DNA of 63,556 nucleotides, the filler included, from Psammoneis japonica (taxonomy: Eukaryota), in NCBI GenBank assembly GCA_008632985.1. It is 7 parts of 7 records of this genome, joined end to end, with 100 filler letters (N's around TTAATTAATTAA, not from the genome) between each part and the next. Parts side by side here need not be neighbours in the genome. Positions count along the whole stretch, not along the records: positions 29,211 to 38,937 come from QPGO01000534.1; 6 more parts are not named here. One strand, given 5' to 3'. Positions 9,070-57,546 of this stretch are shown here, piece by piece. Below the pieces are notes generated by a model. That model had not been told where the DNA came from. It saw nothing but the letters and a program-made list of their open reading frames with translations, and made no database searches. Made by a program: the position numbers and the translations under genes. How positions within the stretch are numbered: position 1 is the first letter of the stretch; every line of letters starts with the position of its first letter.

Positions 9070-9131
<62 letters not shown>
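9070..9131. repeat. (CA)n microsatellite, ~31 units
   Basis: Directly visible. Confidence 0.97.
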
Positions 9132-9133
<2 letters not shown>

Positions 9134-9146
9134 GCTCCAACAAGGC

Positions 9147-23255: not shown

Positions 23256-24930
23256 ATGGTGCCTCCGACGGCGGCAGCGACAAGGACACCGCAGGAGGTT
23301 CAGAATGCGTGGGACGACCTCAAACAATGTCTTTTAAAAACGTCATTACAAGATGCACATAATCAGCAGTCTATGGCTACGGACATGTATGAGCAAGAGG
23401 AAAAACAACAACAACAAAAAGAGGTGAAACAGCGTGGTGGCAAGACGGAGACTCGCAAATCAGAAACGAAAAGCGCAGCACCCATATCGAACAAAAGTCA
23501 ATCTCGCCCACAAGTATCGAATACTAAATCTACACCTACATCAACGCCATTCATGATACACAGTGATTGGTCCTTTGCTATTGAAGAAATGCCAAACATT
23601 TCGAGGTACAGCGTCACGCTTCGTCGAGTAAAGTCGATTTCAACAACGATTGATGCGACACAATTAAAAGTCACCATGAATTATTCAGACGCAAAGGATT
23701 CGACACGAGTGACCTTGACCAATCATCGAGACAAGATCGTGTTGTTTCAAGCGGTGTTTCCCGTGCGACTCGTCAATGCGACTGCAGGACTTGTAGTAGT
23801 TGCCGACGACGACATGATTAGCTTGCGACTCCAAAGCGAGACGCCTCTTTTGTCGACTCCTCGCTCCATTATTCCAACAAGTACTCTTAAAGGAATTTCC
23901 TGTCGGTTCTGTGGTCAGTCTCTTTGTAGTGCAGCAAAAATTGAAAAGATCGTGCCACTCCCAAGTGTTGATTGGAGTGAAGTAGCAGATTACCTCGTTT
24001 GTTACAATGGCGTAAGTAAAGAAACGAGGACCATATGCTTTCTTTCGAAACAAGCCTCTAATGATTTTTTTTTTTGTGTTGCAGCCACTGGCGGTCGACT
24101 TTGGATCCGTCAAACTGGACCGTGGTGTGGCCATGGAGGATTCTACCGTGTTTGTGCTGCATCGCGAGGACGTTGGGGAATCAGTCGCTGTGCTTGCCCT
24201 AGAGGGATATGGTACAGAATGGGAAGCGTCCATAGAACAGTCAGTAGAAAGCAATGACGAGTCGGTACCGTTGGAATGGCAAGATTCTGGCGGCAGTGCT
24301 GCGACCGTGTGTTGTAGCCAATGTTGTTCCGTGTTGGGATGTACGCCCTTGCAGGATACGGACAAGATTCGATTCTTGAAACATCGTCTATCGTATGAAA
24401 AGCAGTCCCGTTGTTCCTCCTTTGTGGCCCAGGAAATGATACGGTACGCGGAAAGCAAGGCAATCTTTACCTTTGCCATCATTGACAATGCCGTCCAACA
24501 CAGCAACGGCAATTGCTTGATTTTGAAAATTTTGAGCTGGGATGCACAAATGGCAGTGTCGTCTCGTGGCAACGGTGTGCTTGATTTTCAAAATGTGGTC
24601 AAGGTCATTTATGAGGTGACAAGTTCAGCGGCAGCACTATCATCACACAAACAAGCCGACAGTCCTTGGTTCCTTGCCGGAGGAACCGTAGACTTTTGCT
24701 GTCTTCCAAACATGGGAGGACCGTCGACAGCTCAAGAATCAAACAAGAACACATCCTCCATGGTTACTTTGTATCTAGATAGTGAGGAATGGGCTGAAGT
24801 GAAGCAGACTGTCACAGATGGTTCCTCGTTCTTCTCAAAAGCTGTGGCGGATACTACGATTCGGTTCAAAGTTGGTGCCATGGCAACGGCTAGCCGCAGC
24901 CTTGGTATGAGTGCACTATTTCTTCAGTAG
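23256..24930 (+). CDS. UBE3D/Ipa1-like HECT-like E2-binding protein (intron 24012-24084)
   Basis: CRFC..PLPSVDWSEVADYLVC resembles the HECT_2 family motif, with a second CxxC (CSQC). A phase-0 GTAAGT..TTGCAG intron joins the two ORFs. Confidence 0.7.
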
Positions 24931-25240
24931 AAGCAAGATCTGTGAGGCTGTGGCGGCGGGCTTTATCATTAATTCTCTAGAGAGTAAGTGTCCCCTTGTT
25001 TGGTGGGAATATTTGCGATCGTTGGGGTCCTGTATCCGGAACAACTGACGGACGATTCTCATGACGTCATCGATGTCAGGGTGGCAATTTTGATTTTCAG
25101 ATTTGTCGTGATTCGACGATTTGCATTCTTTTGATTCTTGTTTGTTGGGGTTCTCAATCTCATTTGATGTGACGCCAACGCGATGCTTTGCCACAAAGAA
25201 AGCACAACGAAATAAGAAGCAGCACATTTTGTTATCGGAT

Positions 25241-27812
25241 ATGTGGAGAAGCAGAATGGGAGGTCGTTTTGTGAAACCAGCGGCGATGGCTCTTCTTTCC
25301 GGACGGCTGGTCGAATCATCGTCGAGCATGTTGGGGAGGAACAAGATCGCCTTCACCTATCATCACCGAGGTTGTCTTTATCGCAATACGCAACTTCGCC
25401 AACTTTTGGCGCGGTCTGCTGGAGCTGCGCCTCTCCCCGCCGAAGAATTACGATGGACGTGTGATCCAGAACAATTTCATTTCAAGACTACCGCAGATCT
25501 TGATGATCTGGGGGGAGACGCGTTGCTTGGACAAGAGAGGGCAACGTCTTCAATCGAATTTGGAATCGGCATGCATCGAGATGGGTATAATCTCTACGTT
25601 CTGGGCCCTGCTGGTGCTGGAAAAAGAACGGTTGTTCAAAAGTACCTTGAACAGCGTGCAAAAGACTGCGATGTTCCGTCGGACTGGTGTTATGTGTACA
25701 ACTTTGAGGATGCCGACTGCCCAGAAGCTTTGGCAGTTCCTGCCGGTATGGGACGCATACTGAGCGACAATATGGATCAAATAATCGAGGATCTCAAAGA
25801 GGCTATCCCTGCCGCGATGGAGAACGACGAACACGTCAAAAGGGTGCAGGCGGCGGAAAAGGAGATTGCACAAGATTTTGAATCTACCTTGAAGGAACTC
25901 TCTGACGAAGCAAAGTCGTTTGGCTTTGAGATTACTCGCAGGCAGAACGGCTTTGCTCTGTTAATACCAAAAACAGTTGAAAACATGACCCAGCAGGAGA
26001 AAGTAGCACTCGAAAAGGCTTCTGAACAAATGGAACCAAAGATGCAGGAGCTCGTACAGAGATTGTCACAGGCCACCAAGGAAACCCGGGAGAAAGTAAA
26101 GGAACTGAATCGAGAAGCTGCGAAGGCAGTGGCACATGGACTGTTTCTTTCAGTCAGAGAAATGTACAAAGATCAATCCAATGTCCTTGAGTTTCTCTCG
26201 AAAGTCGAGGATGATGTTATTCAGAACTTTCGAGAATTTCTTGTATCATCTGAAGACACAGTCATGCCATTCTTGTTCTTGCAAGGTCGCCAGAAATTTG
26301 TTAACAGATATCGTGTTAATCTTATTGTTGATCACGGNAGACGGTTGGGCCCCGGTGGTGTACGAAGATCATCCATATTACCACAATCTCATGGGACGTG
26401 TTGACCATGAGAGCAGCCTTGGCTCGCTAACCACAGACTTTTCACTCATCAAAGCTGGGGCCTTACACCGTGCCAATGGAGGATTCCTCGTATTACGAGC
26501 ACGGGACGTCCTCCTCCAGCCGTTCTCGTGGGAAGCACTAAAGCGAGCGTTGCGTACGGGACGGGTTCAAATGGAATCCTTGGGTGCTGAGTTGAGGCTA
26601 ATCAGTACCGTATCACTGGAGCCCGAGCCCATCCCGCTCGACTTGAAAGTGGTACTGATTGGAGACCGTATGATATACTACCTACTTCAGGCTTATGACG
26701 AGGACTTCAATGAGCTCTTCAAGGTAGGGGCTGACTTTAGCGACGAGACTGACCGTTCAGAGGAGAGCTGCCAGCTATATGCACGGATGTTGGCAACACT
26801 CAGCAAGACGGAAGAAGCGAAACCAATGGATCGCGAGGCAGTCGCTTTGATGATTGAACAAGCCTCAAGGCATGTGGGGGACCAAGAGAAGCTATCAACG
26901 CACATGCTAAGTACAGCGGACCTTTTGCGAGAAGCAGATTATTGGGCTGAGACCGACTCTTCAGATGTCATCGGTGCGGCCCACGTTAGCAAAGCAATAC
27001 AGCAACATATCTATCGCTCTGATCGTGTGCGCGAACTAATACATGAGCAGATAAGACGAGGCACTCTTCTGGTTGATGTTGACGGAGAAAGGATTGGGCA
27101 AGTAAATGGCTTGTCCGTCATGTCACTGGGAAAGCTCGCTTTTGGACGACCATCGCGAATAACGGCTACTGGGCGATTAGGCCGAGGCAAAGTTATTGAC
27201 ATTGAGCGTGAAGTTGAGCTGGGGGGACCGATTCATTCAAAAGGTGTTATGATTCTTTCGTCTCTCTTAGCATCGAGATATGCTAGGGACTTTCCACTTT
27301 CTCTGTCGGCAAGTTTGGTGTTTGAACAATCGTACGGTATGGTGGAAGGTGACAGCGCCTCCGTAGCAGAATTCTGCGCTTTGCTGTCCGCCCTTGCCCA
27401 AGTCCCCATAAGGCAGAACCTGGCGATTACTGGTTCACTGAACCAGCACGGCGAAGCCCAGGCGATTGGCGGAGTCAACGAAAAGATCGAGGGGTACTTT
27501 GATGTTTGCAGTGCAATTGGTTTGACTGGCGAGCAGGGCGTTCTTATTCCGTCATCGAACCGGAAGCACTTGATGTTAAGGCAGGATGTCGTGGATGCGG
27601 TGCGTCAGGGTATGTTTGCGGTATATTCATACGATACTGTCGATGATGCCATAGCTCTTCTTACTGGAGTCGATGCGGGAGAACGGGATAGTAAGGGAGA
27701 ATACAGACCCGAAACTGTCAACTATCTAGTGGATCATCGACTCAAAGAACTTGCCGATTTGATGGTGGCATACTCTGCAAACTCCGAGAAAAATGAATCT
27801 TCGTCTTTGTAG
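25241..27812 (+). CDS. Bacterial LonC/LonB-type Lon-like (S16) protease with an N-terminal extension
   Basis: LGQERA..EFG..GYNLYVLGPAGAGKRT, IKAGALHRANGGFLV, GQVNGLSV, catalytic VEGDSAS and IGGVNEKIEG. The frame break coincides with the ambiguous base at 26338. No introns evident. Confidence 0.9.
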
Positions 27813-27941
27813 GTTTGATCAACCGTCGTATCATACTTTGAAGTACAACCGTCGTTTGATTCTTTTTTCTGGAAAATCTAGAAGTACTCGTAAGCTTCGA
27901 ATAAATCTGCCATTTATTGACAATTTTAAAAGCACCTCATT

Positions 27942-29099
27942 TTACAAGTGACGCACAGATTCACTTTCTTCATGAAAGAGCTCTTGCATCATGTTATCCA
28001 CCAAGTCATCGAGTGGTTTTCTTCGTTCTGATTCCACTTCGTCTTTGCCAGTTCCGTGTACAAGATCAAGGACTTGTTCCGCTTGAGTACGCGTCAACTG
28101 CCAACGATCTTCTCTCGTCTCAAGGAGATCCTCCAAGGGATCTTCAAGGGCTGGCAGCCAATCGCTGTGAAACCAACCATCAAAGCTCAAACGCTTTTCC
28201 TTAGCATGGGGGCTCACTTGAGTAGTGAAGTGTTGTGAGTTGGGTTGACGGCGAACAAAGCCAAGGTGTTGAACTCAGCGTGAACGTAGGAATTTGTGAA
28301 CTTTCTGGGGTCCAATCTGCAAGAATCAAACAAAGAGTAAGGCGCTAAATGAGTTTCAGTCAGAAATTTAAAAGCGAGCAAATCAGTCGCCAATGCGAAA
28401 CTTACAAAGTGCGCCACCCCATTCGGGTTGCCAGTTGTGACTCAGCAGCCACTGGTAAGAAACTGCACGTTGGCCCATATATTGATTGTGCGGAAGTGAA
28501 TAATCTCCAGACATGTGATAACATGCAGAGCCAGAAGGCGCTCTCGTTCCGCCCATACAGTTACGACCTGATAAAGTGGACATGAACTTCTTCGTGTCGG
28601 GGTGTTCGAAAACAGCAAGTGTAGAGTTCATCAAAGCTGAATAGTCAGCACGGTCTGTGACTGCATGTCGGCTGTATTGAAAGCCGTCTTCGTTGAAGCC
28701 TGTATCTAGGGGCCATTTTGCCATTCTTTCAAGTTCGCAGTGAAGTGCTTCGGCAAATTCAGGAATAAACGCGTCATGAATGACAACCAAGTCGTCGCCT
28801 CGCAAAGTCTCCGCAATATCTTCCAATATCTCTCCATCCTCGAACAAGTTAGGATTCAGATAGTGTTCGATACTGGCATACTTTACATCATACGTAGGGC
28901 AGGGTTTATCTTCTTTGTATTTTCTGGCACTTGGCGGGGGCTGGCATTTTTCACCTCGGCATGGCTTTGATTGCGACGACTCGCCGTCGTCGTCATCTCG
29001 TCGAACATACTTATTAGTTGATCTTTTACGAACAGCAAAGACAGGATTGATCGAGGCCAACGCAAATGCCACAAGTAGAAACTGTTGTTGTAATCCCAT
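27942..29099 (-). CDS. Secreted 2OG-Fe(II) oxygenase (prolyl-hydroxylase-like); one intron at ~28317-28405
   Basis: Signal peptide, GDYSLPH..RAV..WQPEWGGAL|YW, FNTLALF, SQHFT and KRLSFDGW. Two single-A corrections in A runs are needed to join the frames. Confidence 0.75.
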
Positions 29100-29110: not shown

Positions 29111-29210
29111 NNNNNNNNNNNNNNNNNNNNNNNNNNNNNNNNNNNNNNNNNNNNTTAATTAATTAANNNNNNNNNNNNNNNNNNNNNNNNNNNNNNNNNN
29201 NNNNNNNNNN
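29111..29210. other. Artificial scaffold linker
   Basis: N44-TTAATTAATTAA-N44. Confidence 0.98.
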
Positions 29211-30837: not shown

Positions 30838-32705
30838 ATTGTTGTTTTGTTTTGTTGTGTTGTGTAGTTGTTGCTGTCAATGTTCTTGTGTCGGGTCGCA
30901 ATCAACTCATCGCCTCTTTTTCGTCGCGTGTTGGCGTGTGCTGAAAATCGTGTGCCTGTCGTGTGAGCAGCCAACGGATTTATATGTTGAGAAATTTATT
31001 TAAAGTTTCTGAACTTAGTATCGCATTTATTGGTGTCACGGTCGTATCTAATCGTTGTGTATCCTTCAAATATGAATGTTATAATTGGAATATGTTTATT
31101 AGATCATTATAAAAATGACAACCAAAACAACTGCGTGTTTGTCAGCACAAATCTTTTTTTAAAATTGCACAGGTTTCCGTCCAACAAAGCTTCTGTCTGT
31201 GCAAGTTACCGGCAGACGACTCAACTGGCTGACTGACGGACGCGCGACGTCACCTGCATCATCTTTTTTTTGAGATGCTCCCTCCGACGCCATAACTTAC
31301 CTGCTGTACACGCCACCATGACAAAAAAGATGCACTGAAGACGGGATGCTGTTTTGTTTTCCCAAGAATTGACACTTGCACCAACACACCACTCATGAGA
31401 GTGCATGTGACAGGATTTGAATGGGATTTGGGTGCGCGCGAAATGTCGCGCGCCATTTAGTTTGCCGCACACAGTTTTGTGTGCTCTTTAGTTCCGCACG
31501 TGCGCTCGCGATGCAGTTTGCTTTCGAGCCACATGGCTCACAAGAACAACAACAGTGGCCTGATTGTGCCAACTCACACGTCTTTTGGCTCCTGCAATGG
31601 TCTCTGAGCGGAGACTCATCTGCTGTTTGGACAGCAGCAAGGAGTTGTTGCTTGAGATCTTGCCATTTGCCTTCAATTTCTGTCAGATTGACAGTCTTGC
31701 TCATTGTCAACTCATTGAGCAACCGCCATCATCGTTGTTGATTTGCCGACGATGCTGTTTCAATTCCACATGGACCTCCGCACTGCACATGTTCTGCGTG
31801 TGCATTGCCAAGTCTGCGTGCATTCAATGCCAGGCATCAGCAGGAATTTAACGTCGCCGTCAAGTCTCCTTGCTGCTGGACATCTGGATTGATTGTGCCA
31901 CCTTTTGTCGCTGCAGACATGCATTCAACGGTTGCATCCAAGTCCATCCTTGATCCTCATCCCTTGACATGCCCATTCAACGGTCAACAGTCAAGAACCC
32001 CACACATTCAAGGATCTTCGTCGACGCTGGAGACATGCACGCGTGTGTCTTCACGGCCAAGAACTTGAACCCACTCTTTGGACTGCGGCTTTGCCACCAC
32101 TCTACAAGCACACCGAGTCCATTGCACTTGATCTGCCCCAGACTGCTGGTGCTCCACAGTTCTGCCAGGTCCACGAGGACAACTGTGAGAGCAAGCAGCC
32201 GTGATTGCAGCCTGCGTTGGGGTGAGGGTGTTTTCCCGCGTTTGTTCGTTAGTCCACAGCGCCCAACGCCTGCGTCAACTGGCCAGCCTGATCGGGAAAT
32301 CCAACAGACATAAAACAAGAACGGCTCGGGGGTCTTGTCCACCTCCAGTCAGCTCACCTGCAGGGGTTTGCAACCCGCTGCTCTGCTCGCAAGCAACCCA
32401 AAGCGCCGCCAGCTGCGGGTTCGGATGTGCCGGCACAACTCTGCGGACCGGATGGGAAGTTTGGCACTTGACAACGAATGGGACAGCACAACCCGGCAAC
32501 TTCTGATTTTAAGATGGTTCAAGATTTCAAGTCAAGTCCATTTCAAGTCAAGTCCATTCCCACTCAAGTTTCAAGTCTGCCTCCGCGTCCTGACAAGAAT
32601 CGCTTGCCCTGACACCTTTTTTGTCTGCCATGGTTCTTGCTCGTCAGCAACAAACCGATGGTTTCAAGCACGTTGTTGGAACCGTGCTTGCCCAAGGTGC
32701 TGGAA

Positions 32706-33093
32706 GACGGGCTCCAGTCCCAGGTGGGACTTTTTGTGACATTTGCCCCGCAGAATTCTATGTGCGAGCTCTGCAGTTCGCACTCGGGTCAATGGACACA
32801 TTTGTCTTCGACACAAAATAAACAGCCAAGTTTGCAGTGCATGTGTCTCTGTTCGCACTCAAAGTTTTGGACAATGCGCCTGCCCTGCACCATTCTTAAG
32901 ACACTCGAGAATGGCGCAGAAGAAAAAATGTTAAAAGTTGTTGAATGGATCGCCTGATGATTGTGCTATAAAATGATGCAAAATTTCGCAAAAATCACGT
33001 AGAAATGCACGTGCGAGACATGCGACGCGATTCAAAAAACTGTCGACATCACAGTTCAGCAGTGCAAGGTCCCACCTAGACCTGGAATGCGTC
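32706..33093. mobile_element. ~390-bp MITE (GAC..GTC family), TSD GGAA
   Basis: TIR GACG(C/G)GTTCCAG....AGGTGGGA, with GGAA on both flanks. Confidence 0.9.
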
Positions 33094-33940: not shown

Positions 33941-34329
33941 GACGGGTTCCAGTCCTGGGTGGGACTTTTTGTGACATTTGCCCCGTAGAATTCCACGTGC
34001 GAGCTCTGCAGTTCGTACTCTGGTTGATGGATGTGTTTGTCTTTGACATAAAAAAAACGGCCAAGTTTGTAGTGCATCTGTCCCTGTTTGCACTCAAAGT
34101 TTTGGACAATGCGCCTGCCCTGCACCATTCTCAAGACACTGGAGAATGGCGTAGAAGAAAAAAATGTCAAAAGTTGTTCAATGGACAGCCTGACAATTGC
34201 ACCATAAAATCACACAAAATTTTGCCAAAATCACGTAGAAATGCATGTGTGCGACATACGACGCGATTCAAAAAACTGTTGATGTCACAGTTCAGTGGTG
34301 CGAGGTCCCACCCAGACCTGGAGCGCATC
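33941..34329. mobile_element. ~390-bp MITE (GAC..GTC family), TSD GCCG
   Basis: Same TIR. Removing it restores the gag sequence MLKNAAHPVEELRAVKNQA. Confidence 0.92.
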
Positions 34330-35031
34330 GCCGCACATCCTGTCGAGGAACTCCGCGCCGTCAAGAACCAAGCTGATCAACATCGCACGCAGAGTGGCAA
34401 GAGCCTCACATGCGATCAACATTGTGGCTTGCTCCTCTCCGCGGTGGCTCAATGCGACAGCACGTTTCAACCCAAGACGACACCTCGAGCTCCCCACCGT
34501 GCCACATGCGCACACAACGTCCACTCCGAGGAACCATCCGATGATGTGTTCTGTGACATCGACAGCAAAATTGATGTCCTTCAGGCCAACGCTGCCTGCG
34601 CCTGCGGTCCCAGCCTCGCCGGCGACCAACAGAAACGCCTCCCTCCTGACCACCAATGGGTTTTTGGGATTCGTTGCCCAACTCCTCCAAGGCGATCATC
34701 CTTGAGCATTCTCGTCCGCCTCCTCGCAACCCATGAGCCGGCAACTGCCATGAGTCCATTGCGGTCAACCTTCACGACCAACGACTTGGGAGTGACGGTG
34801 ATGTCAACTTGTCCTCCACGACTCTTGCTGCCTCTGGTGATCCCACTCTGAATGTGGGTGCCACTTCAGACAATCCCATTCTGGCACATCTCACCAAGCG
34901 CAAGCCACTGCCACCCGGTGATCTGCAGTGCCTGTTGTCTCCTAACCAAGCCCCCAAAGCCAGTCGACCGGGCCCATCCGCTGCTCCCTCTACCTCGCCT
35001 GCTCCCCCAGATGACATGGAACTTAACGGCC

Positions 35032-35427
35032 AACGCGCTCCAGCCCCAGGTGGGAGCTCGCAGTGCTGATGTGTGACAACAATGATTTTCATCATCCGTC
35101 GTATGTTTCGTACGTAGATTTCTACGTGTGACATTTAAAAAAAATTGTCCAGACTCACTGTTTTGCGAAGCCCCAGACGTTTTGTGTGACAAATTTACAG
35201 AAACAACAGTGCGCCAGTTGCATTCTTCAATGTCTGAAGAATGCAACTGGCCAAGCAAAAAATGATGCACTTCAATCATGTGCGAGTTTGTGCGTTCGCA
35301 AAATTGCCTCATTTTCTGTTGGCGATCATTGACATTTTAATTGCCGTGTGATTTTGCTGCAGAGCTCGCACGCAGAAGTCTGCGGGCCAAATGTCACACG
35401 GATTCCCACCTGCGTCTGGAACGCGTC
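35032..35427. mobile_element. ~395-bp MITE (GAC..GTC family, second subfamily), TSD GGCC
   Basis: Reverse complement of 53573-53970. Removing it restores ELNGRTCHRVDNHNVVCSAS. Confidence 0.92.
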
Positions 35428-48546: not shown

Positions 48547-49417
48547 TGCCCCATGCATGTGCCAGGCGCTGAAAAAGAAGATGTGTTGCGACTTTGTCGT
48601 TGTGAAAATTGTGAGCTAGTTTAGAGCAGAGAAAATGGGATCGTGCGAATGGGGAATCTTGCCAAATCCCTGTTCGTTCGCATTTGGATCGCATCAAATC
48701 GATCGTGCGTTCGCATTGTGGATCGTGCGAATCAAGCCATCACGCGCNNNNNNNNNNNNNNNNNNNNNNNNNNNNNNNNNNNNNNNNNNNNNNNNNNNNN
48801 NNNNNNNNNNNNNNNNNNNNNNNNNNNNNNNNNNNNNNNNNNNNNNNNNNNNNNNNNNNNNNNNNNNNNNNNNNNNNNNNNNNNNNNNNNNNNNNNNNNN
48901 NNNNNNNNNNNNNNNNNNNNTGCATGCAGACAAAAGGTTATTTTGTCACGCCCTTTGTGACATTTAAAGGCTGCAACACGTCGCCGTGATGCGCTGGCTC
49001 TTGTCAGCAGCTGTGTGTTGCACTCCTCCCCATGTGTCACGCGACCCACGCTCGCGTGTGCTGACGCTGCACGGTTTTGGCAGAACAGCGTGGGTGCATG
49101 CGAAGGAACACACAGAACTGCACAGAGTTTTACGCGCTCGACAGTGACCAACGTTGCTGCAGACAACTCCCACTCGGGTTTCGAACCCCTGGCCTCCTGC
49201 CTGGTGGTTGCGATGCACCACTCCGCTGTGAATTCACAACGCAGCATGCATGCAGACAAAAGGACATTTTGTCACGCCCTTTGTGACATTTAAAGGCTGC
49301 AACACGTCGCCGTGATGCATTGGCTCTTGTTGGCAGCTGTGTGTTGCAGCTGCGTTGCCATGCACAAGAGGCTCATGCACGGTCTCGCCGTGTTGTCCAG
49401 CAGCGAGGCATGCTGCA
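48547..49417 (-). mobile_element. Probable solo or rearranged LTR of the Gypsy family at 56223-57546 (contains a gap and an insertion)
   Basis: 48547-48747 matches 56223-56420, and 49351-49417 matches 56588-56653. Confidence 0.6.
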
Positions 49418-49534
49418 CAAGAAAGTCATGTGGGTGGGCCGCTCCATCCAGGAACCAAACCACCAGCACTGGATCTTCTGCAATGTTGCCGGGGCGCAGC
49501 TGCTTGATCGCAGCAGAGGCTGCAATGACCGCTG

Positions 49535-50160
49535 TCATGTGGCCAGCCTCGATGGCCGCCGCCATGCTTGGCACTTGAACGCTGAAACAACCGGGCAGCC
49601 CAGCTCATCAAGCCTCCCCCCCTCACATGACAAATGGAAGCGGGGAAAAGGAAATGGGAAAGGGGAGCACGGACAACACAACACTGCCAAGCACAAAAAT
49701 CAATGTCAGGACAGCATGGAAATGACACACCCACAGACAAACTGACAAAAAATGACACCACCAAACAAAAAATTGTGCGTCAATTTGACAGGGTTCGGGC
49801 AGTGGACAGCAAGCAAAGGCCAAAAGGTGAGGCTGAAGGGAAAATGGGAAATGGGAAATGGGTGAAGTGCAGAGCTCAGCTCAAGCACAAAACAAACTTT
49901 GGCGAATGTTTGCAAAACTGAAAGAGAGAAACAAAATGCAGAAATGAGGTGCGCTGTGAAAGACACAGATGGAGCATGCAGCAAAGCAAGGAAGAAACTT
50001 CAGAGAGGAGCTGGCTGGTCTGAAACAACAGAAGAGTCATCGTTGGCTTCAAGGGCGGCGTTGTTCAGCTGCTGTTTGTTGGCATTGCCAAACATTTCCT
50101 GGGCTTGACGACAGAAAACCAGAGCTTCATGGCACTCTTGACTGAGTGGCTCAGGAATGA
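49535..50160. repeat. ~620-bp dispersed repeat; second copy at 55188-55808
   Basis: Near-identical CTCGATGGCCGCCGCCATGCTTGGCAC..GAGTGGCTCAGGAATGA. Confidence 0.9.
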
Positions 50161-50258
50161 CATCATCTGGGCAGATGAAAAGCCCGAAGTGGTGGAGGTG
50201 ATTGAGGCCGGGGTGGGAACGGCAGCACCGATGTTCTGGTGTCCTGGATCAGCTGGGA

Positions 50259-50569
50259 GACGGGTTCCAGCCCCAGGTGGGACTTTTTGTGACACTGGTT
50301 CTGCAGAATTCTGCGTGCAAGCTCCGCAGTGAAATTGTCAAGCAATGCATGTGCCCTTTGCAGTGTGTCCGGGCACACTCTTCAGTCACCAAAGAACACA
50401 CCCAGTGCATTTTCATTGTCACAGATGTGCACAACAGAAAGCATTTGGCTTCACAAAACAGGCAGTGTGGAACAATTTTTTACAACAGAACACGCAGAAA
50501 TGTGCACGCGAAACATGCGACGGATGACAAAAACGATTGTGTCGCAGCTCAGCAGTGTGAGGTCCCACC
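50259..50569. mobile_element. Shorter, truncated member of the GAC..GTC MITE family
   Basis: Left TIR GACGGGTTCCAGCCCCAGGTGGGAC. The right end stops at GAGGTCCCACC. Confidence 0.8.
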
Positions 50570-51496
50570 AGTGATCACATGGGCAATCGCTGCAATTGCC
50601 AGTGTTCGTTGGAGCCCTTGCATGAAAATTGGCTGAGGTGGCCAACCCAGCGGGCTGAAGGACAATTCTGAGAAGCCCGACAGCTGCAGAAGNNNNNNNN
50701 NNNNNNNNNNNNNNNNNNNNNNNNNNNNNNNNNNNNNNNNNNNNNNNNNNNNNNNNNNNNNNNNNNNNNNNNNNNNNNNNNNNNNNNNNNNNNNNNNNNN
50801 NNNNNNNNNNNNNNNNNNNNNNNNNNNNNNNNNNNNNNNNNNNNNNNNNNNNNNNNNNNNNNNNNNNNNNNNNNNNNNNNNNNNNNNNNNNNNNNNNNNN
50901 NNNNNNNNNNNNNNNNNNNNNNNNNNNNNNNNNNNNNNNNNNNNNNNNNNNNNNNNNNNNNNNNNNNNNNNNNNNNNNNNNNNNNNNNNNNNNNNNNNNN
51001 NNNNNNNNNNNNNNNNNNNNNNNNNNNNNNNNNNNNNNNNNNNNNNNNNNNNNNNNNNNNNNNNNNNNNNNNNNNNNNNNNNNNNNNNNNNNNNNNNNNN
51101 NNNNNNNNNNNNNNNNNNNNNNNNNNNNNNNNNNNNNNNNNNNNNNNNNNNNNNNNNNNNNNNNNNNNNNNNNNNNNNTTGGGGTTGGGTCAGGCAGAAC
51201 CAAGTGCTCTCGCGACGTCAACTCGATCGAGCTCCGCTCCGCTCCACTCTCTCTCGTTGAACTTGTCGCATCGAGCACTTCTGGGTTGGGGTCAGGGAAA
51301 AGGAAAAAAGGAAAAAAGAAAAAAGGGAAAAAAAGGGAAAAAGAAACAAAGGGAAACAAGGGAAAAAGGGAGGGGGGGACAGAGGGAAACAAGGGAAACA
51401 AGGGGAAAAAAGGAACAAAGCAAAACAAGAAAAAAATTTGGAGACCAAGGTTCGAGTCCTTGTCTCTGCCTTTTTTTACTTTTTTTTACCATTTTC

Positions 51497-54400
51497 ACAT
51501 TTGGTGCTGTTGATGAGGCTCGCTTTGCCAACTGGGGATCAAGAGGGCACGGAGGATGCGAGGACCTTGTTGCTGATCTCAACTTGAGCACAGTTGCCAA
51601 TGAGCTTGGGCGGGGCACGGCGATTGCGAATGTTGTCTTCAAGCGTGTTGACAAATTCTTGTCGGTTTTGACTCCGCACACATCCGTGACAAGGGATTTG
51701 GTGCCAACAAAGAGCTGGGCACTGGCGCAGCTGGAGTCAACAGCGGGGTGTCAGAGTGCACCATGTTGGGCAACGGGTTCGTTGCATCAGTGGACGTTGA
51801 GAGCCGGGTTGGGCAACTTGTGCACCTTTTTCAAGTGCGTGCTGTGCGTCATGCAATCAAAAGTGTGGTGGACAGTGTCCTTTGGAAGAAAGCCAAAACA
51901 AGGGTGCAGAGACTCAAAGTTGGGGTCCTTTGGATTGATCTCATGCTCATGGCATTTGCAGAAGAAATTGGACGTCGGGAGCAGGTGGTCATCAAGGACG
52001 GAGTCCACAAGCATGGCATTGTTGATGACATGATGGTGGTGATGGTTGCCGAACTTGTCAAAGAGGTTGGCAGTCGGTCGGCCTGGAGGTCAGATGCAGC
52101 ATCATGCTGCGTCTCATTGTCGGCGATTCTGGTGGTTGAGGGACAGATGGGTCCCAAGTGTTGTCACCTGTGAGGATGACGTGTGGCAAGGTGTCCCATT
52201 TGGCGTCAGTGTGTGGGAGCATGGCAATGTGCAGAAGGCCGCCTTTGATGTCAATGGGGATGACACATCCATCAATGTGGTGATGCACTGCAGACCACTG
52301 GGGACCTTGATGGGCCGATCATTGATGTCGTGTTTGTGCCGCTCAAGTTGACCGCAAGAGTGCATGGTCTTGCCCTCACCAGTGCAGGCATGCTGGTGAA
52401 GAGTGGTGATGATGGGGCCACGTTGGGTGTGGATGACACCACCCGCAGTGACAATGGGAACATCGACCAGCTGGTGATTGTCGACACCTTTGACATCAAC
52501 CTGGTGACCAGCGTGAGCAATGACATGAACATCGTCACCGGGCAACACCGCTGTTTGCACCGCAATTCACGTGGGTGCCTTTGCAAGTGGATTTGTGGGT
52601 CGAGGCAGAGCAGACGACATTGTGGTTGTTGACATGATGGTGTTCATGACCATTGATCTCAATGTCAGTGTCATCAAGCTTCTCGTCAGAGCAGACAGAA
52701 GGCACAGATCCGGGGGGTTTCTCTCCAGAATGGGCGGAAGGAGGCAGCTCAGGTGCAAGGAGACGTTGCAAGTCACTGGGTGGCAGAGGCTTGCAGCTGG
52801 TGAGATGAGCCAGAATGGGGTCAGCAACGCAGCATGGCATGGTGCGGAGCACAAGGAGCCGTCTTGGGGGCAAACGTGCTGTCGTGCTGTGCCATGGCAG
52901 AAAGCAGGAGTCCATGGCACTGCTCACAAGAAAGGCCCTTGCCATTCTGTGCGCGAAACTGATTGGCCTGATTCTTTGCCAAGCGCAGTTCTTCGACAGG
53001 GTGAACAGAGTTCTCAAGCATGACACGTTTCTGTCCAGCCAAGAAATGGTCCGTGCCCAGGATGAGAGCTTGCTTGAGCATCAGAGGAGCCAACATGTTC
53101 ACAAAAGAGTGCCTTGCCTTTGTCACTCTGCAAGATGCATTCGAGCACAATGACCATGTGCCCCCGTTGTTCATCGATCAGGGCCTTGTCCTCAGCTGCA
53201 GAGGGCTTGTGCTTCGGATCAAGAATGCGGTCAACTTCGTGGGAGCGGGCCTGTGCAATGATGGAGGTGTGCCACGTGTGCCACTGTTTGTCAGACTTGA
53301 GAAGCGCAAAGGTGAGTGGGTTGCGTTTGATGCCTTGTTTCAAGTCACGCATGGGGTCATGTGGTTTGGGTGGCAACAAGCCAGGAATGGGGGCAGAAGG
53401 TGCTGTGCCCATGGAGAGGGACGCTGCGTGCTCAGGACTGAGACGACAGTTGGTGAACTCCTCGTGTGTGAACAATTGGGGGTTGTTGCTGACATTGGTG
53501 CTGCCGCGCACTTTTGCCATGTGCAGGCTAATCAGCGCAGCTCTCTGTGCTTTGCAGCCATGTGGCAAGGGCGACGCGTTCCAGACGCAGGTGGGAATCC
53601 GTGTGACATTGGGCCCGCAGACTTCTGCGTGCGAGCTCCGTAGTAAAATTGTGCGGCAATTAAAATGTCAATGATCGCCAACAGAAAATGAGGCAATTTT
53701 GCGAACGCACAAACTCGCACATGATTGAAGTGCATCATTTTTTACTTGGCCAGTTACATTCTTCAGACATTGAAGAATGTAACTGGCGCATTGTTGTTTC
53801 TATATAAATTTGTCATGTAAAACGTCTGGGGTTTCGCAAAACAGCGAGTCTGGACAATTTTTTTTAAACATCACACGTGGAAATCTACGTGCGAAACATG
53901 CGACGGATGACAAAAATCATTGTTGTCACACGTCAGCACTGCGAGCTCCCACCTGGGGCTGGAACGCGTCGGGCATTTGATTGGCACCGTCGTTGCAAAC
54001 AAGGGCACCCAGTTGCGCAGGAGCAAAAGAAAAGAGGTCCTGATGCGAGTCAGTTCTGTCAATGTTGAGAGTGGAGTGCAGTGGACTGTCTGCGGCTTGA
54101 CCTCAGAACAGCACCCAGGATGTGCTCGAGGCCATCAATTTGTTGCTGTCTGGTCAGAACCATGTTGCAACTGGGTGAGTGTCGGGATTGGCCAGAGTGG
54201 GAAGGTGAGCTTGAAACAACTTGAAACTTGGCTTGAGTCTTGACTTGAAGTCTTGAGCCATCTTGCAAGTCAGAAGCCACCGTGCCATGACATCCCGTTT
54301 GCCTGCAGAGTTGTGCCGGCACGTCCGAACCCGCAGCTGGCGACAATTTGGGTTGCTTCAGAGCAGAGCAATGGGTTAAAAACCCCTGCTGACAAGCCAG

Positions 54401-55174
54401 CTGGAGGTGGACAAGACCTCCGAACCGTTCTCATTTTGTGTTGGTTGGATGACCCGATCAGGCCGGCCAAATTTGGCACTGTGGAGGGACGAACAAACAC
54501 GGGAGCTGCGCCCTTGCCCCAACGTTCGTGGACCTTGCAGGACTGCAGAAGACCAGCAATCCGGCACAGATGCAAGATGGTGGACTTGGCGTGTGCAAAG
54601 CAGGGCCAGAGTCAAGGGCTCATGTCGTGCGCACATGAGCACAAGCAGATGGATTGGTCTGTCTGCCAACCAGGGCAGAATCTGCTGCGGGGAATCCGGA
54701 ATCTCAGATTTCTGAGAATTCGGGAATTCCTGACCAAACAAATGTCCGTTGAACAAACACATGCAATGATGGGAGGTGTTGGACAAAACCAAATGTGTGG
54801 ATTTAATCCAGCATCCAGCAGCGAAGAAGGCAGACATGTGCTTCCACCGCCAGCTGTGCACGTCATCAAAAAATTTCTCGATGACAATGACGAACGCTCA
54901 GTGGACAAGAATGAGCAAGACTGTTGATCTGACAGAAGTTGAAGATGACTGGGTGGAAGAAAACAGTGACTCCTCGCTGCTGTCTGAGTGGCAGATGAGT
55001 CTCCATGTGGAGACTGTTGCAGGAGCCGAAAGACTGGTGTCGTGATGTCGGCACTGCTGTTGTTGTTCTTGTGAGCCATGTGGCTTGAAAGCAATTTGCA
55101 TTGCACGGTGTGCCCGGAGCTGAGAGCACACATGACTGTGTGCGACAAACTGAAATCTTGCTCAAATCCTGTCA
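51497..55174 (-). mobile_element. Diatom Copia-type LTR retrotransposon (LTR/leader, gag, protease, part of integrase), decayed
   Basis: TGACAGGATTTGA start at 55174. gag MVLTRQQQIDG and LKQGIKRNP..LKSDKQWHTW. pol motifs VDVKGVDNHQ, WDTLPHVILTGD..WDP, PALNVH and AQLFVGTKSLVTDV, with integrase following protease as in Copia. Confidence 0.9.
53573..53970. mobile_element. ~398-bp MITE (GAC..GTC family, second subfamily), TSD GGGC
   Basis: Complete TIRs, GGGC on both flanks, and an internal 16-bp perfect hairpin. Confidence 0.92.
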
Positions 55175-55809
55175 GCAATGACGACCATCATGTGGCCTTC
55201 CTCGATGGCCGCCGCCATGCTTGGCACTTGAACGCTGAAACAACCGGGCAGCCCAGCTCATCAAGCCTCCCCTCACATGACAAATGGGAGCGGGGAAAAG
55301 GAAATGGGAAAGGGGAGCACGGACAACATGACACTGCCAAGCACAAAAATCAATGTCAGGTCAGCATGGAAATGACACACCCACAGACAAACTGACAAAA
55401 AAATGACACCACCAAACAAAAAAATTGTGCGTCAATTTGACTGGGTTTGGCAGCAGACAGCGGGCAAAGGCCAAAAGGTGAGGCTGAAGGGAAAATGGGA
55501 AATGGGAAATGGGTGAAGCACAGAACTCAGCTCAAGTGCAAAACAAACTTTGGCGAATGTTTGCAAAACTGAAAGAGAGAAACAAAATGCAGAAATGAGG
55601 TGCGCTGTGAAAGATGCAGATGGAGAATGCAGCAAAGCAAGGAAGAATCTTCAGAGAGGAGCTGACTGGTCTGAAACAACAGAAGAGTTGTCGTTGGCTT
55701 CAAGGACGGCATTGTTGAGCTGCTGTTTGTTGGCATCACCAAACATTTCCTGGGCTTGACAGAAAACCAGAGCTTCGTGGCACTCTTGACTGAGTGGCTC
55801 AGGAATGAT

Positions 55810-56222
55810 TCAAGCCAAAAATGATCGCAAAGACATGGGCCATTTGGACTCGGAGTGAGGCAGTGTGGGCTGAACATCCTGCAAGAAGCTGACACCTGTG
55901 CCCAACTGAAGCTGCACCCACGCCACTGCAATGCATGACAGAACATGAGGCTGACCACAGCTGCGCCAGTGTCGGAGAAACTGCGCGCATTGGGATGTGC
56001 CCTGCTGCTCCACATCCAATGAACGAAAGCCACCTCCACCAAGAGCACATGGTCCAAACAGTGCATCATGTTTCGCACTGTGATTGCACCCACAGTTTGT
56101 GAAAATCGTGCACATTGCTTTCCGCTGGATCTCCAACAGCTCCTTTGGCAAGAAGCAAGTGTTCTGAAGATTGCAAGACACGGAAGACAAGTGGCGCACA
56201 AAGCAATGTGCCCAAGCTTCAT
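55810..56222 (-). mobile_element. Fragment of a non-LTR retrotransposon ORF (region downstream of RT)
   Basis: LFGP..LGGGGF..L..EQ..G..Q..FLRHWR..W.Q...G....L.D....LPH.E.KW..SLR.FL pattern, recalled from diatom LINE-like elements. Confidence 0.6.
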
Positions 56223-57546
56223 TGCCCCATGCATGCACCAGGCGCTGAAAAGAAGATGTGTTGCGACTTTGTCGTTGTGAAAATTGTGAGCTAGTTTAGA
56301 GCAGAGAAAGTGGGATCGTGCGAATGGGGAATCTTGCCAAATCCCCATTCGTTTGCATTTGGATCGCATCAAATCGATCGTGCGTTCGCATTGTGGATCG
56401 TGCGAACCAAGCCATCATGCGCTGTGCACGAGTGATGTCATCGTGTGGAATCACGCCACCATCGTGGGCCAGACGACGGGCTGGTGTGCTTCACACGGAT
56501 GCTCTCTTGGCATCCTTCTGGAATTGCCCAAGACCCAGAGCCACGCCCTCCTGTGGTCATGCTTCCCAGGTGCGTGTTGACAACACTGCGTTGCCACGTG
56601 CAAGAGGCTCATGCACGGTCTCGCCGTGTTGTCCAGCAGCGAGGCATGCTGCACACTCCCCATGATCAGGGCCGTCAAGTGACAGGATGTCTTGCTGGTG
56701 ATGGGGTGCAATCTGCCGTAGATTGTGCGCATCCATCAGCGCTCTGTTCTGGATGCACAACGTGCCATTGTCACACACACGGACAACTCTGGTGGGTCCT
56801 GCATGGCTGTCAGAACCGCATTTAGAGGATTGTTCCTGTTTGACAAGCACCAATTGCCCGACGGCACATTGATGCTCCTTGCGTTTCTGATGTTCATGCT
56901 TGTTGTTCAAGTGGACAAGCTTCTGCTTTCTGGTTTCTATGTGCTTCCACTTGGCACGATGGGCAACAGATGAAACCGCATTGCGTCCGAAGACCAATTG
57001 CATGGGACTCACACGCGTGGTCGCATGTGCCGCAGCTCCAATGGCGAAGGCCACTGCAGAGAGGATGCCACTCCATGGGTCATCTTCGTCCAGTTCCACA
57101 CCCTGTGCTGAAAAGGAACATGCATGTTGCCAAGTGTCTGGTGTGCACGTTCCACTGTGGCATTCGCCTGTGGATTCTGTTTGCTTGTGGGTTTCTTCAA
57201 AATCCCACAGTCATTTTTAATCATCTGGCTGAATTCTGCCATAAATTCTGTCCCACGGTCATAAACCACCTGGGTTGGCCACGGATGTCTGCATGGCCAC
57301 GTTTGTTCCACGACGTTTGCTGCGACGTCTGCGCGTTTCGTAGACACTTCTTCAATCTCGAACCATCGGTTGCTGGGTCAATCATTGTGACTGCCCACAA
57401 TTGCAAAGTGTCCTTTCCGCGTCTTTGAATTTTATGTGGCCCTGTCACATCCATGCATGGAGTCTCCCATGGAATTGTCTCTGCGACCTTTTCTGGTGGC
57501 TTCCCACAACGCTGCGTTCGGCGTTTTGTCTTCTGGCATCGATCGC
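56223..57546 (-). mobile_element. Gypsy-type LTR retrotransposon 3' end (integrase, PPT, ~430-bp 3' LTR at 56223-56653)
   Basis: Integrase motifs TMIDPAT, YDRGTEF, NPQAN..VER.HQTLGNM, SPMQLVFGR and a GPY/F-like tail. A purine tract GGGGAG precedes a TG..CA-bounded segment repeated at 48547-49417. Confidence 0.85.

What the first reader, a model, noticed from the sequence alone, without database searches (positions are those of the whole stretch)
35032..35427. Two young MITE copies caught part-way through mutation, with complementary surviving TA sites
Seen: comparing 53573-53970 with the reverse complement of 35032-35427 gives tttTActtgg/tttTGcttgg, cagtTAcatt/cagtTGcatt and aatgTAactgg/aatgCAactgg. 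In the other direction it gives cacgTGgaa/cacgTAgaa, ctacgTGcg/ctacgTAcg and aacaTGcg/aacaTAcg. Each copy keeps TA where the other lost it, and both keep more TA than the Copia DNA they sit in. Inference: mutation is independent per copy, happens after insertion and accumulates over time, so residual TA works as an insertion clock.
Basis: seen in the sequence. Interest (0 to 1): 0.78.

Follow-up and report, generated by a model that had tools for sequence, protein, structure and literature searches.

The report
TA-erasing mutation caught midway in transposons
Two copies of a small jumping-gene relic in what looks like a diatom genome are part-way through a mutation process that turns every TA step into TG or CA, a process so far reported only in one unrelated alga.

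Summary
53573-53970 (+) and 35032-35427 (-) are two independent insertions of a ~397-bp MITE with 24-bp terminal inverted repeats and 4-bp target duplications (GGGC, GGCC). They differ by 28 substitutions, 27 of them transitions. Ten are TA versus TG/CA (7 kept by one copy, 3 by the other). Ten more form five TG-versus-CA doublets, against 0.31 expected from random transitions (0 of 20,000 simulations). The doublets imply an ancestral TA lost independently, on either strand, in each copy. The surrounding repeats are almost TA-free (1/1073 and 2/1230 bp beside copy A; 15 TA against 462 expected in 2501-9613), with TG/CA about 1.8-fold enriched, so the direction is TA to TG/CA, the opposite of RIP. 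A 2026 preprint showed this signature in mutation-accumulation lines of the chlorarachniophyte Bigelowiella natans, in integrated viral DNA. Here every organism-named protein hit is a diatom, and the targets are transposons at near-saturation. The "insertion clock" is not shown: TA loss did not track background divergence in 7 repeat pairs. The "Copia" host is unverified. I classify this as a new member of a very recently described kind.

The parts
53573..53970 (+). MITE copy A (398 bp), 12 TA retained
   Evidence: 24-bp TIR GACGCGTTCCAG..CAGGTGGGA at both ends. Contigs of run X1 stop matching exactly at 53573 and 53970 and continue into unrelated flanks, and one contig joins 53568 to 53971, which is an empty site.
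53569..53572 (.). Target-site duplication of A, left (GGGC); the right copy is at 53971-53974
   Evidence: The empty-site joint has 4 letters that fit on either side.
35032..35427 (-). MITE copy B (396 bp), 7 TA retained
   Evidence: 92.7% identical to A over 397 bp, with the same TIRs.
35428..35431 (.). Target-site duplication of B (GGCC); the other copy is at 35028-35031
32706..33093 (+). Family member C (388 bp, subfamily CDE), TSD GGAA, 8 TA
33941..34329 (+). Family member D (389 bp), TSD GCCG, 8 TA
41509..41898 (+). Family member E (390 bp), TSD CGGA/CAGA (one CpG-to-CpA change after insertion), 9 TA
50259..50575 (+). Family member F. It lacks a recognisable 3' TIR and has 1 TA (at 50481), so it is an older, fully eroded copy
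49292..56718 (.). TA-poor repeat block that hosts copy A. It has 7 TA in about 7 kb outside the MITE's TA-bearing part (53529-53886)
   Evidence: Summed depth of laid contigs is in the thousands against 31-87 for single contigs.
31404..32577 (+). LTR-like direct repeat L1. It pairs with L2 at 35602-36767 (87.6% by blastn). MITEs C, D and B lie between the two
   Evidence: Of 133 differences between L1 and L2, 60 are 30 TG|CA doublets. No TSD was established.
35602..36767 (+). LTR-like direct repeat L2
54226..55154 (-). Third, more diverged copy (73-80%) of the LTR-like repeat, next to MITE A

Best explanation
A and B are two independent insertions of an abundant, non-coding DNA transposon relic (a MITE: ~397 bp, 24-bp terminal inverted repeats, 4-bp target-site duplication). 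They sit in two diverged copies of an older LTR-like repeat.

Since A and B separated, both have been eroded in place by a mutation process that acts only on the self-complementary dinucleotide TpA. It converts the A on one strand or the other to G, so each TA becomes TG or CA, apparently at random.

Each copy has so far lost about half to two thirds of roughly 24 ancestral TAs, and it has lost them independently of the other copy. This explains the three classes of difference. Some sites are TA in one copy only. Some are TG in one copy and CA in the other. Some remain TA in both.

The older repeats around the two copies have been driven almost to completion, with TA virtually absent. The signature matches the TpA-to-TpG/CpA hypermutation of integrated foreign DNA seen in mutation-accumulation lines of Bigelowiella natans.

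Shown here: the dinucleotide specificity, the direction, the independence between copies, and the restriction to repeat blocks. Inferred: that the process acts on chromosomal DNA after insertion, and that it is a targeted genome defence. Unknown: the chemistry. Adenine deamination to inosine by a DNA-acting deaminase is the leading idea, taken from the preprint. From recall, modification of the T of TpA followed by mispairing is an alternative.
For: 1. Element anatomy. Five family members have 4-bp TSDs (GGGC, GGCC, GGAA, GCCG, CGGA/CAGA) and about 24-bp TIRs. Run X1 supplies an empty-site contig and many contigs whose match ends exactly at 53573 or 53970 before running into unrelated flanks (loose-end consensus agreement 0.37-0.41).

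2. A and B lie at different positions of host copies that are only 66-85% alike, whereas A and B are 92.7% alike.

3. Spectrum. 27 of 28 substitutions are transitions: 10 TA|TG/CA singles, 5 TG|CA doublets and 3 CpG. Random transitions would give 0.31 doublets (0 of 20,000 simulations reach 5).

4. CpG cannot be the source of the doublets. 23 CpGs are shared by A and B and only 3 differ.

5. Composition fixes the direction.
- 2501-9613 has 15 TA against 462 expected, and 784 TG plus 844 CA against 429 and 460 expected.
- Gene-like DNA at 20001-29000 has 355 TA against 625 expected.
- rho(TA) falls to 0.01-0.1 in repeat bins, where rho(TG/CA) is 1.6-1.85.
- G+C in the TA-poor blocks is 0.46-0.58, apart from one G+C-rich tandem array at 0.68, so this is not a general AT-to-GC drive.

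6. The same pattern appears in other repeats. The LTR-like pair has 30 doublets in 133 differences, C/D has 9 doublets, and 49522/55175 has 8.

7. The inferred ancestral TA numbers are those of ordinary DNA: 24 in A/B against 29 expected from base composition, and 70 in L1/L2 against 65 expected.

8. In the five-copy alignment, 3 columns carry TA, TG and CA together, and 8 columns carry TG and CA together.

9. In run X1, about 90% of the depth at 53879 reads A. That makes TA the family-majority state there, where copy A has TG.

10. Age rather than location determines TA content. Member F has 1 TA and A has 12, and both lie in the same TA-free block.

11. Precedent. bioRxiv 10.64898/2026.01.13.699255 (abstract, Results and Discussion read) reports that 230 of 231 de novo mutations in two integrated viral regions were A>G or T>C. 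It reports that all of these fell on TpA.
Against: There is no real-time evidence in this organism, and no whole genome was available. Family-wide states therefore rest on 6 in-window copies and a truncated table from one run (346 of 386 'other letter' rows hidden).

Two of the six quoted sites (53891 and 53900) show TG in most in-window copies and TA only in B, or in B and D. On naive parsimony this looks like TG to TA. I attribute it to parallel loss and to roughly one expected background reversal, but the window alone cannot exclude the naive reading.

The TA|TG/CA singles alone are only marginally above a transition-only null (P=0.047).

The sequencing technology behind the assembly and behind run X1 is not on record, so a systematic miscall at modified TpA cannot be formally excluded.

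The LTR-like pair lacks a demonstrable TSD. Its differences therefore show independent mutation after the two copies split, but not strictly after integration.

The telomere-like array at 38027-38937 and a short local repeat (9725/10021) keep their TAs. Repetition as such is therefore not the trigger, and the targeting rule is unknown.
Confidence: 0.8

Rival explanations
1. RIP-like or general cytosine deamination. Under this reading TG and CA (and CpG) are ancestral, C-to-T changes create TA, and TA is the derived state in each copy.
For: At 53641, copy A has TA where the five other family members have CA. All the differences are transitions, as in RIP.
Against: Mutated repeats would then be TA-rich and GC-poor. 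Here the oldest repeats have almost no TA (15 against 462 expected in 7.1 kb) and unchanged G+C. TG|CA doublets (5 in A/B, 30 in L1/L2) would need a CpG ancestor, but CpG is well retained (23 shared against 3 differing in A/B). Background transitions predict only about one TG/CA-to-TA change in A/B. This is my estimate from 4 differences at 183 non-target sites and the 34 TG and 35 CA in copy A.
Confidence: 0.02
2. RNA editing (ADAR-like A-to-I with a 5' U preference) of repeat transcripts, fixed when the host retroelement is reverse-transcribed and re-inserted. On this view the MITE copies were carried along inside retroelement copies.
For: A-to-G with a 5' T/U neighbour is the known ADAR preference (stated in the preprint's Discussion). 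Both MITE copies lie inside LTR-like repeats.
Against: A and B have their own 4-bp TSDs and lie at different positions of the host copies, so they inserted as DNA. The changes are symmetric between strands, with TG about equal to CA in every block, whereas editing of one transcript strand would give TG only. The MITE is much less mutated than the host DNA that would have been on the same transcript.
Confidence: 0.04
3. Base-calling or assembly artefact. Under this reading TpA in silenced repeats carries a base modification that is read as G, or as C on the other strand, so the TA loss is not in the DNA.
For: A palindromic modified motif read wrongly from either strand would give a random choice of TG or CA per site. 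The library type is not on record for the run or for the assembly.
Against: Run X1's contigs hold 52% of the sampled 31-letter words of the TA-free stretch 52000-57500. If nearly every ancestral TA (about one per 16 bp) were a miscall specific to the assembly, almost no 31-mer would be shared. This argument holds only if X1 is a different data type from the assembly. 539 of 4093 laid contigs are 99% or more alike. CpG decay and ordinary substitutions rise together with TA loss in the older repeats. In B. natans the same signature was found with Illumina reads (Results read).
Confidence: 0.05
4. No special process. The differences are ordinary neutral transitions plus CpG decay, and the repeats are TA-poor by origin or through selection against TA.
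For: TA is under-represented in most genomes; gene-like DNA here has rho(TA) of about 0.5-0.7. The singles alone give P=0.047.
Against: Doublets are 16-fold above the random-transition expectation in A/B. rho(TA) of 0.01-0.1 across unrelated repeat families with sharp borders (42 TA in bin 2001-2500 against 1 in bin 2501-3000) is far outside any compositional norm. The elements are non-coding relics on which selection is not expected.
Confidence: 0.03

Closest known systems
TpA hypermutation of integrated NCLDV and virophage DNA in Bigelowiella natans (Mettrop et al., bioRxiv 10.64898/2026.01.13.699255, 2026; abstract, Results and Discussion read)
   Same: The changes are exclusively A>G/T>C on TpA, giving TpG or CpA according to strand. 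They are confined to particular non-host regions. The long-term footprint is low rho(TpA) with high rho(CpA+TpG). TpA-depleted genes are enriched for reverse-transcriptase and DDE domains.
   Different: That organism is a chlorarachniophyte, whereas every organism-named protein hit for this window is a diatom. There the clearest targets are single-copy viral insertions with rho(TpA) 0.45. Here the targets are multi-copy transposons, including 400-bp MITEs, driven to rho 0.01-0.1. There the process was seen in real time; here it is inferred from copies. The preprint does not mention copy-by-copy TG/CA randomisation, context beyond TpA, or diatoms.
Repeat-induced point mutation (RIP) of ascomycete fungi
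   Same: A dinucleotide-specific transition process that hits repeated or foreign DNA on both strands, destroys coding capacity and leaves a compositional scar with sharp borders.
   Different: RIP is C-to-T, mainly at CpA, so it creates TpA and lowers G+C (abstracts of PMC2621366 and PMC7296669 seen in listings). Here TpA is destroyed and G+C barely changes. Dependence on a sexual cycle or on repeat length was not testable here.
Methyl-CpG deamination decay of transposons
   Same: The logic is the same: a self-complementary dinucleotide decays to TG or CA depending on the strand hit, so independent copies show TG|CA doublets. This process is also present here as a second, slower one (CpG|TG/CA: 3 in A/B, 26 in L1/L2).
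   Different: The dinucleotide and the base differ (C of CpG against A of TpA). In these MITEs CpG is not depleted (rho 1.08-1.25) while TA is.
ADAR hyper-editing of repeat-derived double-stranded RNA
   Same: A-to-G changes with a preference for a 5' U/T neighbour.
   Different: ADAR acts on RNA, so a genomic trace needs reverse transcription and would be strand-specific. Here the pattern is strand-symmetric and is present in a DNA transposon.
MITEs (miniature inverted-repeat transposable elements)
   Same: Small size, TIRs, TSD, no ORF, very high copy number, and subfamilies that share termini but not their internal sequence.
   Different: The superfamily is not assigned. From recall, a 4-bp G/C-rich TSD is unusual (for example Sola, Ginger or Academ-type). 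No autonomous partner was found in the window.

Membership tests
TpA-specific hypermutation of non-host DNA (B. natans type) | Changes are almost only A>G/T>C transitions | tested here: met
   27 of 28 A/B substitutions are transitions. Direction was inferred from composition and doublets, not observed.
TpA-specific hypermutation of non-host DNA (B. natans type) | Changes fall on TpA and give TpG or CpA | tested here: met
   20 of 28 A/B substitutions are TA|TG/CA singles or TG|CA doublets. In L1/L2 the figure is 67 of 133. AA, AT and TT are not depleted.
TpA-specific hypermutation of non-host DNA (B. natans type) | Local restriction: targeted blocks beside normal DNA | tested here: met
   TA-poor blocks have sharp borders next to gene-like DNA with rho(TA) 0.5-0.7.
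TpA-specific hypermutation of non-host DNA (B. natans type) | Low rho(TpA) coupled with high rho(CpA+TpG) | tested here: met
   rho(TA) is 0.01-0.17 where rho(TG/CA) is 1.5-1.85.
TpA-specific hypermutation of non-host DNA (B. natans type) | De novo occurrence at about 1000-fold the background rate in living lines | not testable with these tools
   Only a historical estimate was possible: TA sites were lost at 34-172 times the non-target divergence in 7 pairs.
TpA-specific hypermutation of non-host DNA (B. natans type) | Same enzyme or homologous machinery | not testable with these tools
   No genome is held. The enzyme is not known in B. natans either, where only candidates are named.
Fungal RIP | C-to-T at CpA (or CpG) that raises TpA and lowers G+C in repeats | tested here: not met
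   TpA is almost absent from the repeats, and G+C is 0.46-0.58 in the blocks against about 0.47 in genes.
MITE | Terminal inverted repeats | tested here: met
   22-26 of 40 terminal bases are complementary, with the first 24 nearly perfect, in all 5 full copies.
MITE | Target-site duplication and an empty site | tested here: met
   The 4-bp TSD is exact in 4 of 5 copies and has one mismatch in the fifth. One contig joins 53568 to 53971.
MITE | Short, non-coding, many copies at unrelated sites | tested here: met
   The copies are 388-398 bp. Summed contig depth over the element is 66,000-297,000, against 31-87 for the single contigs listed in table 8. Flanks beyond 53573 and 53970 disagree among contigs. 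Depth is not an exact copy number.
   No Pfam hit in 100 + 26 ORFs of the repeat blocks except rve (E=7e-4, below the curated cut-off) at 57012-57377(-). Heavy mutation may hide the domains.

The most novel reading that the evidence does not exclude
A diatom, which is a stramenopile and far from the chlorarachniophyte where the process was first seen, runs a TpA-specific DNA-editing genome defence. It erases TA from every transposon, including 400-bp MITEs, at tens to hundreds of times the background rate. It works fastest where the TA is flanked by a 5' A or a 3' T, and it leaves the TTAGGG array intact. If so, the system is widespread in (or has spread among) SAR algae. Partly eroded young MITE families would then be a natural read-out of its rate, strand choice and targeting rule.
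Probability: 0.55. Interest if true: 0.85.

Novelty: new member of a known kind. Interest (0 to 1): 0.7.

Why it matters
Until a 2026 preprint, no cellular system was known that mutates A:T to G:C at one specific dinucleotide in foreign DNA. That report rests on one species and on two viral insertions. This window shows the same footprint, close to saturation, in the transposons of an organism whose proteins look like a diatom's. Three things would follow.

First, the process would not be a peculiarity of one alga. Second, transposons as well as viruses would be its targets. Third, abundant young MITE families offer hundreds of independent replicates for measuring its rate, sequence context and strand behaviour without any experiment.

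There are also practical consequences. TA-free DNA has no TAA or TAG stops, which favours long false ORFs. Protein-domain searches fail on the eroded elements: 126 ORFs gave one sub-threshold hit. Dating of transposons by simple divergence is badly inflated, because half of the differences between the two LTR-like repeats are TA-derived.

Tried and rejected
1. Whole-genome search for all family members.

2. Two scans of metagenome contigs with TIR patterns. The first found 0 loci. The second found 28 loci, of which 27 match only 19-25 nt and are consistent with chance matches. One (L013) shares about 33 nt of the TIR and nothing more. This gave no extra family copies.

3. Read laying on 52400-54600. 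It was useful for element ends, the empty site and two majority letters, but 346 of 386 variant rows were hidden, so a per-site family profile could not be built.

4. The clock test. I compared -ln(TA retention) with divergence at sites outside TA/CG/TG/CA in 7 pairs. There was no correlation (rho -0.14, P=0.76). Counts are small and some alignments are poor (C/E, D/E), so this neither proves nor disproves a clock.

5. Strand-run test on TG|CA doublets. L1/L2 showed no clustering (16 runs in 30, P=0.73). D/E showed 8 of 8 in one orientation (two-sided 0.008, uncorrected for 7 tests). I treat this as a hint only.

6. Domain searches for the 'Copia' host found nothing above threshold.

7. Taxonomy from the ESM Atlas was uninformative: the best score was 0.77, to a bacterial cluster.

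8. The paralogous 'empty site' for B at 52630-52766. The host copies are too diverged for a clean junction.

9. A TSD for the LTR-like pair was not found.

10. Earlier-findings look-ups found nothing on this genome or this signature in eukaryotes.

11. Considered and rejected: GC-biased gene conversion, because only TA is affected and not AA, AT or TT. Also rejected: the compensatory change in the 16-bp palindrome (53756 with 53780) as evidence of structure, because given that both TAs mutated, a complementary outcome has probability 1/2.

Full report
**What is at the coordinates**

53573-53970 (+) and 35032-35427 (-) are two copies of one element, 92.7% identical over 397 bp. Each has about 24-bp terminal inverted repeats (GACGCGTTCCAG..CAGGTGGGA) and an exact 4-bp target-site duplication: GGGC for A and GGCC for B.

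Four more members lie in the window. C is at 32706-33093, D at 33941-34329, E at 41509-41898, and a 3'-truncated F at 50259-50575. They share the termini of A and B but not all of the internal sequence. C, D and E also have 4-bp duplications.

I laid the contigs of one public run on 52400-54600. One contig joins 53568 to 53971 with 4 ambiguous letters, which is an empty site. Many contigs match up to exactly 53573 or 53970 and then diverge from each other (loose-end agreement 0.37-0.41). Summed depth over the element is 66,000-297,000, against 31-87 for the single contigs listed in table 8.

The element is therefore an abundant MITE with many independent insertion sites.

**Where the two copies sit**

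A 1.17-kb direct repeat (31404-32577 and 35602-36767, 87.6% identical) encloses C, D and B. A third, more diverged copy of that repeat (54226-55154, reverse strand) lies next to A, followed by homologues of the enclosed DNA in the same order.

Relative to this host, A occupies the position next to the LTR-like repeat. B lies between segments that are adjacent in the other host copy (34875-34927 with 35450-35561, against 52767-52819 with 52517-52629).

A and B are thus separate insertions into host copies that are only 66-85% alike. I could not establish a TSD for the LTR-like pair.

I also could not confirm that the host is Copia. Of 126 ORFs from the repeat blocks, only one gave a retroelement signal: rve at E=7e-4, below Pfam's cut-off, at 57012-57377(-).

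**The observation**

All six quoted site pairs are present. In full, A and B differ by 28 substitutions and a 2-bp indel. 27 of the substitutions are transitions.

| Class | Count |
|---|---|
| TA versus TG/CA singles | 10 (7 kept by A, 3 kept by B) |
| TG-versus-CA doublets | 5 (10 substitutions) |
| CpG versus TG/CA | 3 |
| Other transitions | 4 (one is a CpG formed with the TSD) |
| Transversions | 1 |

**Is it more than chance?**

If 27 transitions are scattered at random on copy A, they produce on average 5.88 TA|TG/CA singles. This is because TA, TG and CA together cover much of the sequence. The ten singles are then only marginally unusual (P=0.047).

Doublets are different. The expectation is 0.31, and none of 20,000 simulations reached 5. 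Of the 17 non-doublet transitions, 10 are TA|TG/CA when 22% would be expected (P=0.001).

**Direction of change**

A TG|CA doublet needs an ancestor one step from both states, which means TA or CG. CpG is ruled out as the main source. A and B share 23 CpGs and differ at only 3, so sites where both copies lost a CpG should be far fewer than one.

The window's composition settles the direction.
- Repeat blocks are almost free of TA. 2501-9613 has 15 against 462 expected, and the flanks of A have 1 in 1073 bp and 2 in 1230 bp.
- TG and CA are both about 1.8-fold over expectation.
- G+C is hardly changed.
- AA, AT and TT are not depleted.
- Gene-like DNA has rho(TA) of 0.5-0.7.

A RIP-like C-to-T process would have done the opposite.

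Further support:
- The LTR-like pair shows 30 doublets among 133 differences, and other repeat pairs show 2-9.
- In the five-copy alignment, 3 columns carry TA, TG and CA together, and 8 carry TG and CA together.
- At 53879, where A has TG and B has TA, about 90% of the depth of the laid contigs reads A, so TA is the family majority there. At 53869, 91% reads T where A has C. If 53870 stays A in those contigs, the majority state there is TA too, but hidden rows prevent certainty.

Evidence against my reading should be stated as fully. At 53641 only A has TA and five other members have CA. At 53891 only B has TA. At 53900 only B and D have TA. With most TAs already lost in every copy, such patterns are expected from parallel loss. 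About one of the ten singles could be an ordinary back-transition; this is my estimate from 4 differences at 183 non-target sites.

**Independence and amount of loss**

I counted sites kept by both copies (4), kept by one (10) and visibly lost by both (5). I assumed as many hidden same-outcome losses as visible ones. This gives about 24 ancestral TAs in A/B, where 29 are expected from base composition. The same method gives 70 in the LTR-like pair, where 65 are expected.

The ancestors therefore had ordinary TA content. The kept/lost table for A and B fits independence (Fisher P=0.66). Per copy, 62% of TAs have been lost since A and B split.

Across 7 pairs, TA sites were lost 34-172 times faster than non-target sites diverged.

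**After insertion, and is it a clock?**

A is a TA island (12 TA) in a 7.4-kb block with 7 other TAs. Family member F, in the same block, has 1 TA. TA content therefore follows the age of the copy and not its location or small size. This supports erosion in place over time.

A usable clock is not shown. TA loss did not correlate with background divergence in the 7 pairs (rho -0.14, P=0.76; small counts and some poor alignments). In B. natans the process was active in only 11 of 15 lines (Results read), which argues for episodic activity.

**What is known**

Eight full-text searches were answered. They found one relevant paper: bioRxiv 10.64898/2026.01.13.699255, of which I read the abstract, Results and Discussion.

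In mutation-accumulation lines of the chlorarachniophyte Bigelowiella natans, 231 of 302 new single-nucleotide mutations fell in two integrated viral regions. 230 of those 231 were A>G or T>C, and all of them were on TpA. The rate was about 1000-fold above the rest of the genome.

[quoted passage not shown] These are enriched for reverse-transcriptase and DDE domains. They propose a DNA adenine deaminase of the ADAT2 type.

The paper does not mention diatoms, MITEs or context beyond TpA. None of the searches found the signature reported for a diatom.

**The organism**

No protein of the window has a near-identical match in the 5.8-billion-protein collection. The best identities are 33% for a phosphatase-like ORF, 69% for a mitochondrial phosphate carrier and 85% for a Rab GTPase.

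Every hit whose organism can be read from its name is a diatom. These include Nitzschia, Fragilaria, Seminavis, Cyclotella, Epithemia, Grammatophora, Cylindrotheca, Mayamaea and Bacillariaceae. Names truncated by the tool or given only as codes could not be read.

The genes are intron-poor, and a TTAGGG-type array is present. The window is therefore not from B. natans and is most likely from a diatom. That makes it a second, distant lineage with this footprint.

**Extra detail on the process**

The few TAs that survive in the TA-poor blocks are strongly depleted of the contexts ATA and TAT: 2 of 29, against 494 of 1059 in gene-like DNA (P=1e-5).

Within repeat pairs, ancestral TAs with a 5' A or a 3' T were kept in 11 of 83 cases. 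Other contexts were kept in 40 of 111 cases (P=5e-4). Both copies of a site are counted, so the cases are not fully independent.

The process thus seems fastest where the TA is flanked by a 5' A or a 3' T. On the deaminated strand this corresponds to an A with a T on each side. Survivors are enriched for CTAA/TTAG (9 of 29 against 70 of 1059), and the (TTAGGG)n-like array at 38027-38937 keeps its TAs.

CpG loss is a separate, slower process and is uneven between blocks.

**Verdict**

Its reading as a TA-destroying, copy-independent, post-insertion mutation is well supported. The clock and the Copia label are not.

The phenomenon belongs to a kind described in print only months before this search, in another supergroup. 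Its occurrence in a diatom-like genome, in transposons and at saturation, is new as far as my searches reach.

The main residual risks are a base-calling artefact at modified TpA (about 5%) and the small number of copies available to me.

Noticed in passing
window 38027-38937: An interstitial telomere-type array, (GGGTTA)n with about 150 units, lies directly after a 447-N run (37580-38026). It keeps its TAs (58-65 per 500 bp) although it sits between TA-free repeat blocks. Either it is not a target of the TA-erasing process or it is young or renewed. It could also mark a scaffold join of chromosome ends.
   Followed up: partly
window 4915-9658 and 62616-63556 versus 49292-56718: All of these blocks are TA-free, but CpG depletion differs greatly: 49 CpG in 4.7 kb and 6 in 0.94 kb, against 249 in about 7 kb. 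A second, slower CpG-to-TG/CA decay seems to run on top of the TA loss and might date older elements once TA is exhausted.
   Followed up: partly
TA-poor blocks listed; survivors listed: Surviving TAs avoid the contexts ATA and TAT (2 of 29 against 47% in gene-like DNA) and favour CTAA/TTAG. Within repeat pairs, TAs with a 5' A or 3' T were lost more often. This suggests an extended target motif beyond TpA.
   Followed up: yes
window 33941-34329 (D) versus 41509-41898 (E); also 3701-3922 versus 4155-4376: At all 8 TG|CA doublets between D and E, D has TG and E has CA. At all 5 doublets of the 3701/4155 pair, the first copy has CA. The long LTR-like pair shows no such runs. This is a possible hint that one episode hits many TAs on one strand of a short element.
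   Followed up: partly
window 53749-53787 and 35213-35251: A 16-bp perfect palindrome lies inside the MITE. In B the TA of one arm became TG and the TA of the other arm became CA, so the arms stay complementary. Given that both TAs mutated, this has a 1-in-2 chance, so it is not evidence of a structural constraint.
   Followed up: yes
window 9725-9910 and 10021-10206: A short local repeat (186 bp, 7 differences at 81 non-target sites) keeps all 7 shared TAs. Duplication as such does not trigger the TA loss.
   Followed up: partly
window 9070-9131: A perfect (CA)31 microsatellite lies inside a TA-free block. It could be an ordinary CA repeat or a former (TA)n converted on one strand throughout. 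This was not tested.
   Followed up: no
window 9614-9713, 19448-19547, 29111-29210, 38938-39037, 48325-48424, 57547-57646: Paired 44-N runs separated by 12 bases recur every 9.2-9.8 kb. This looks like regular masking rather than assembly gaps.
   Followed up: no
L013 (metagenome contig, 1108 bp), about 587-619: This contig carries a 33-nt match to the MITE's 5' TIR and adjacent bases (88-94%), with no further similarity and with normal TA content (62 TA in 1042 bp). It is possibly a related transposon end in another organism that lacks the TA erosion.
   Followed up: partly
window 12754-13303: A 129-bp tandem repeat (4.3 copies, 98% matches, G+C 0.68) lies inside long ORFs on both strands. 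It has no TA, which its G+C content alone may explain.
   Followed up: no
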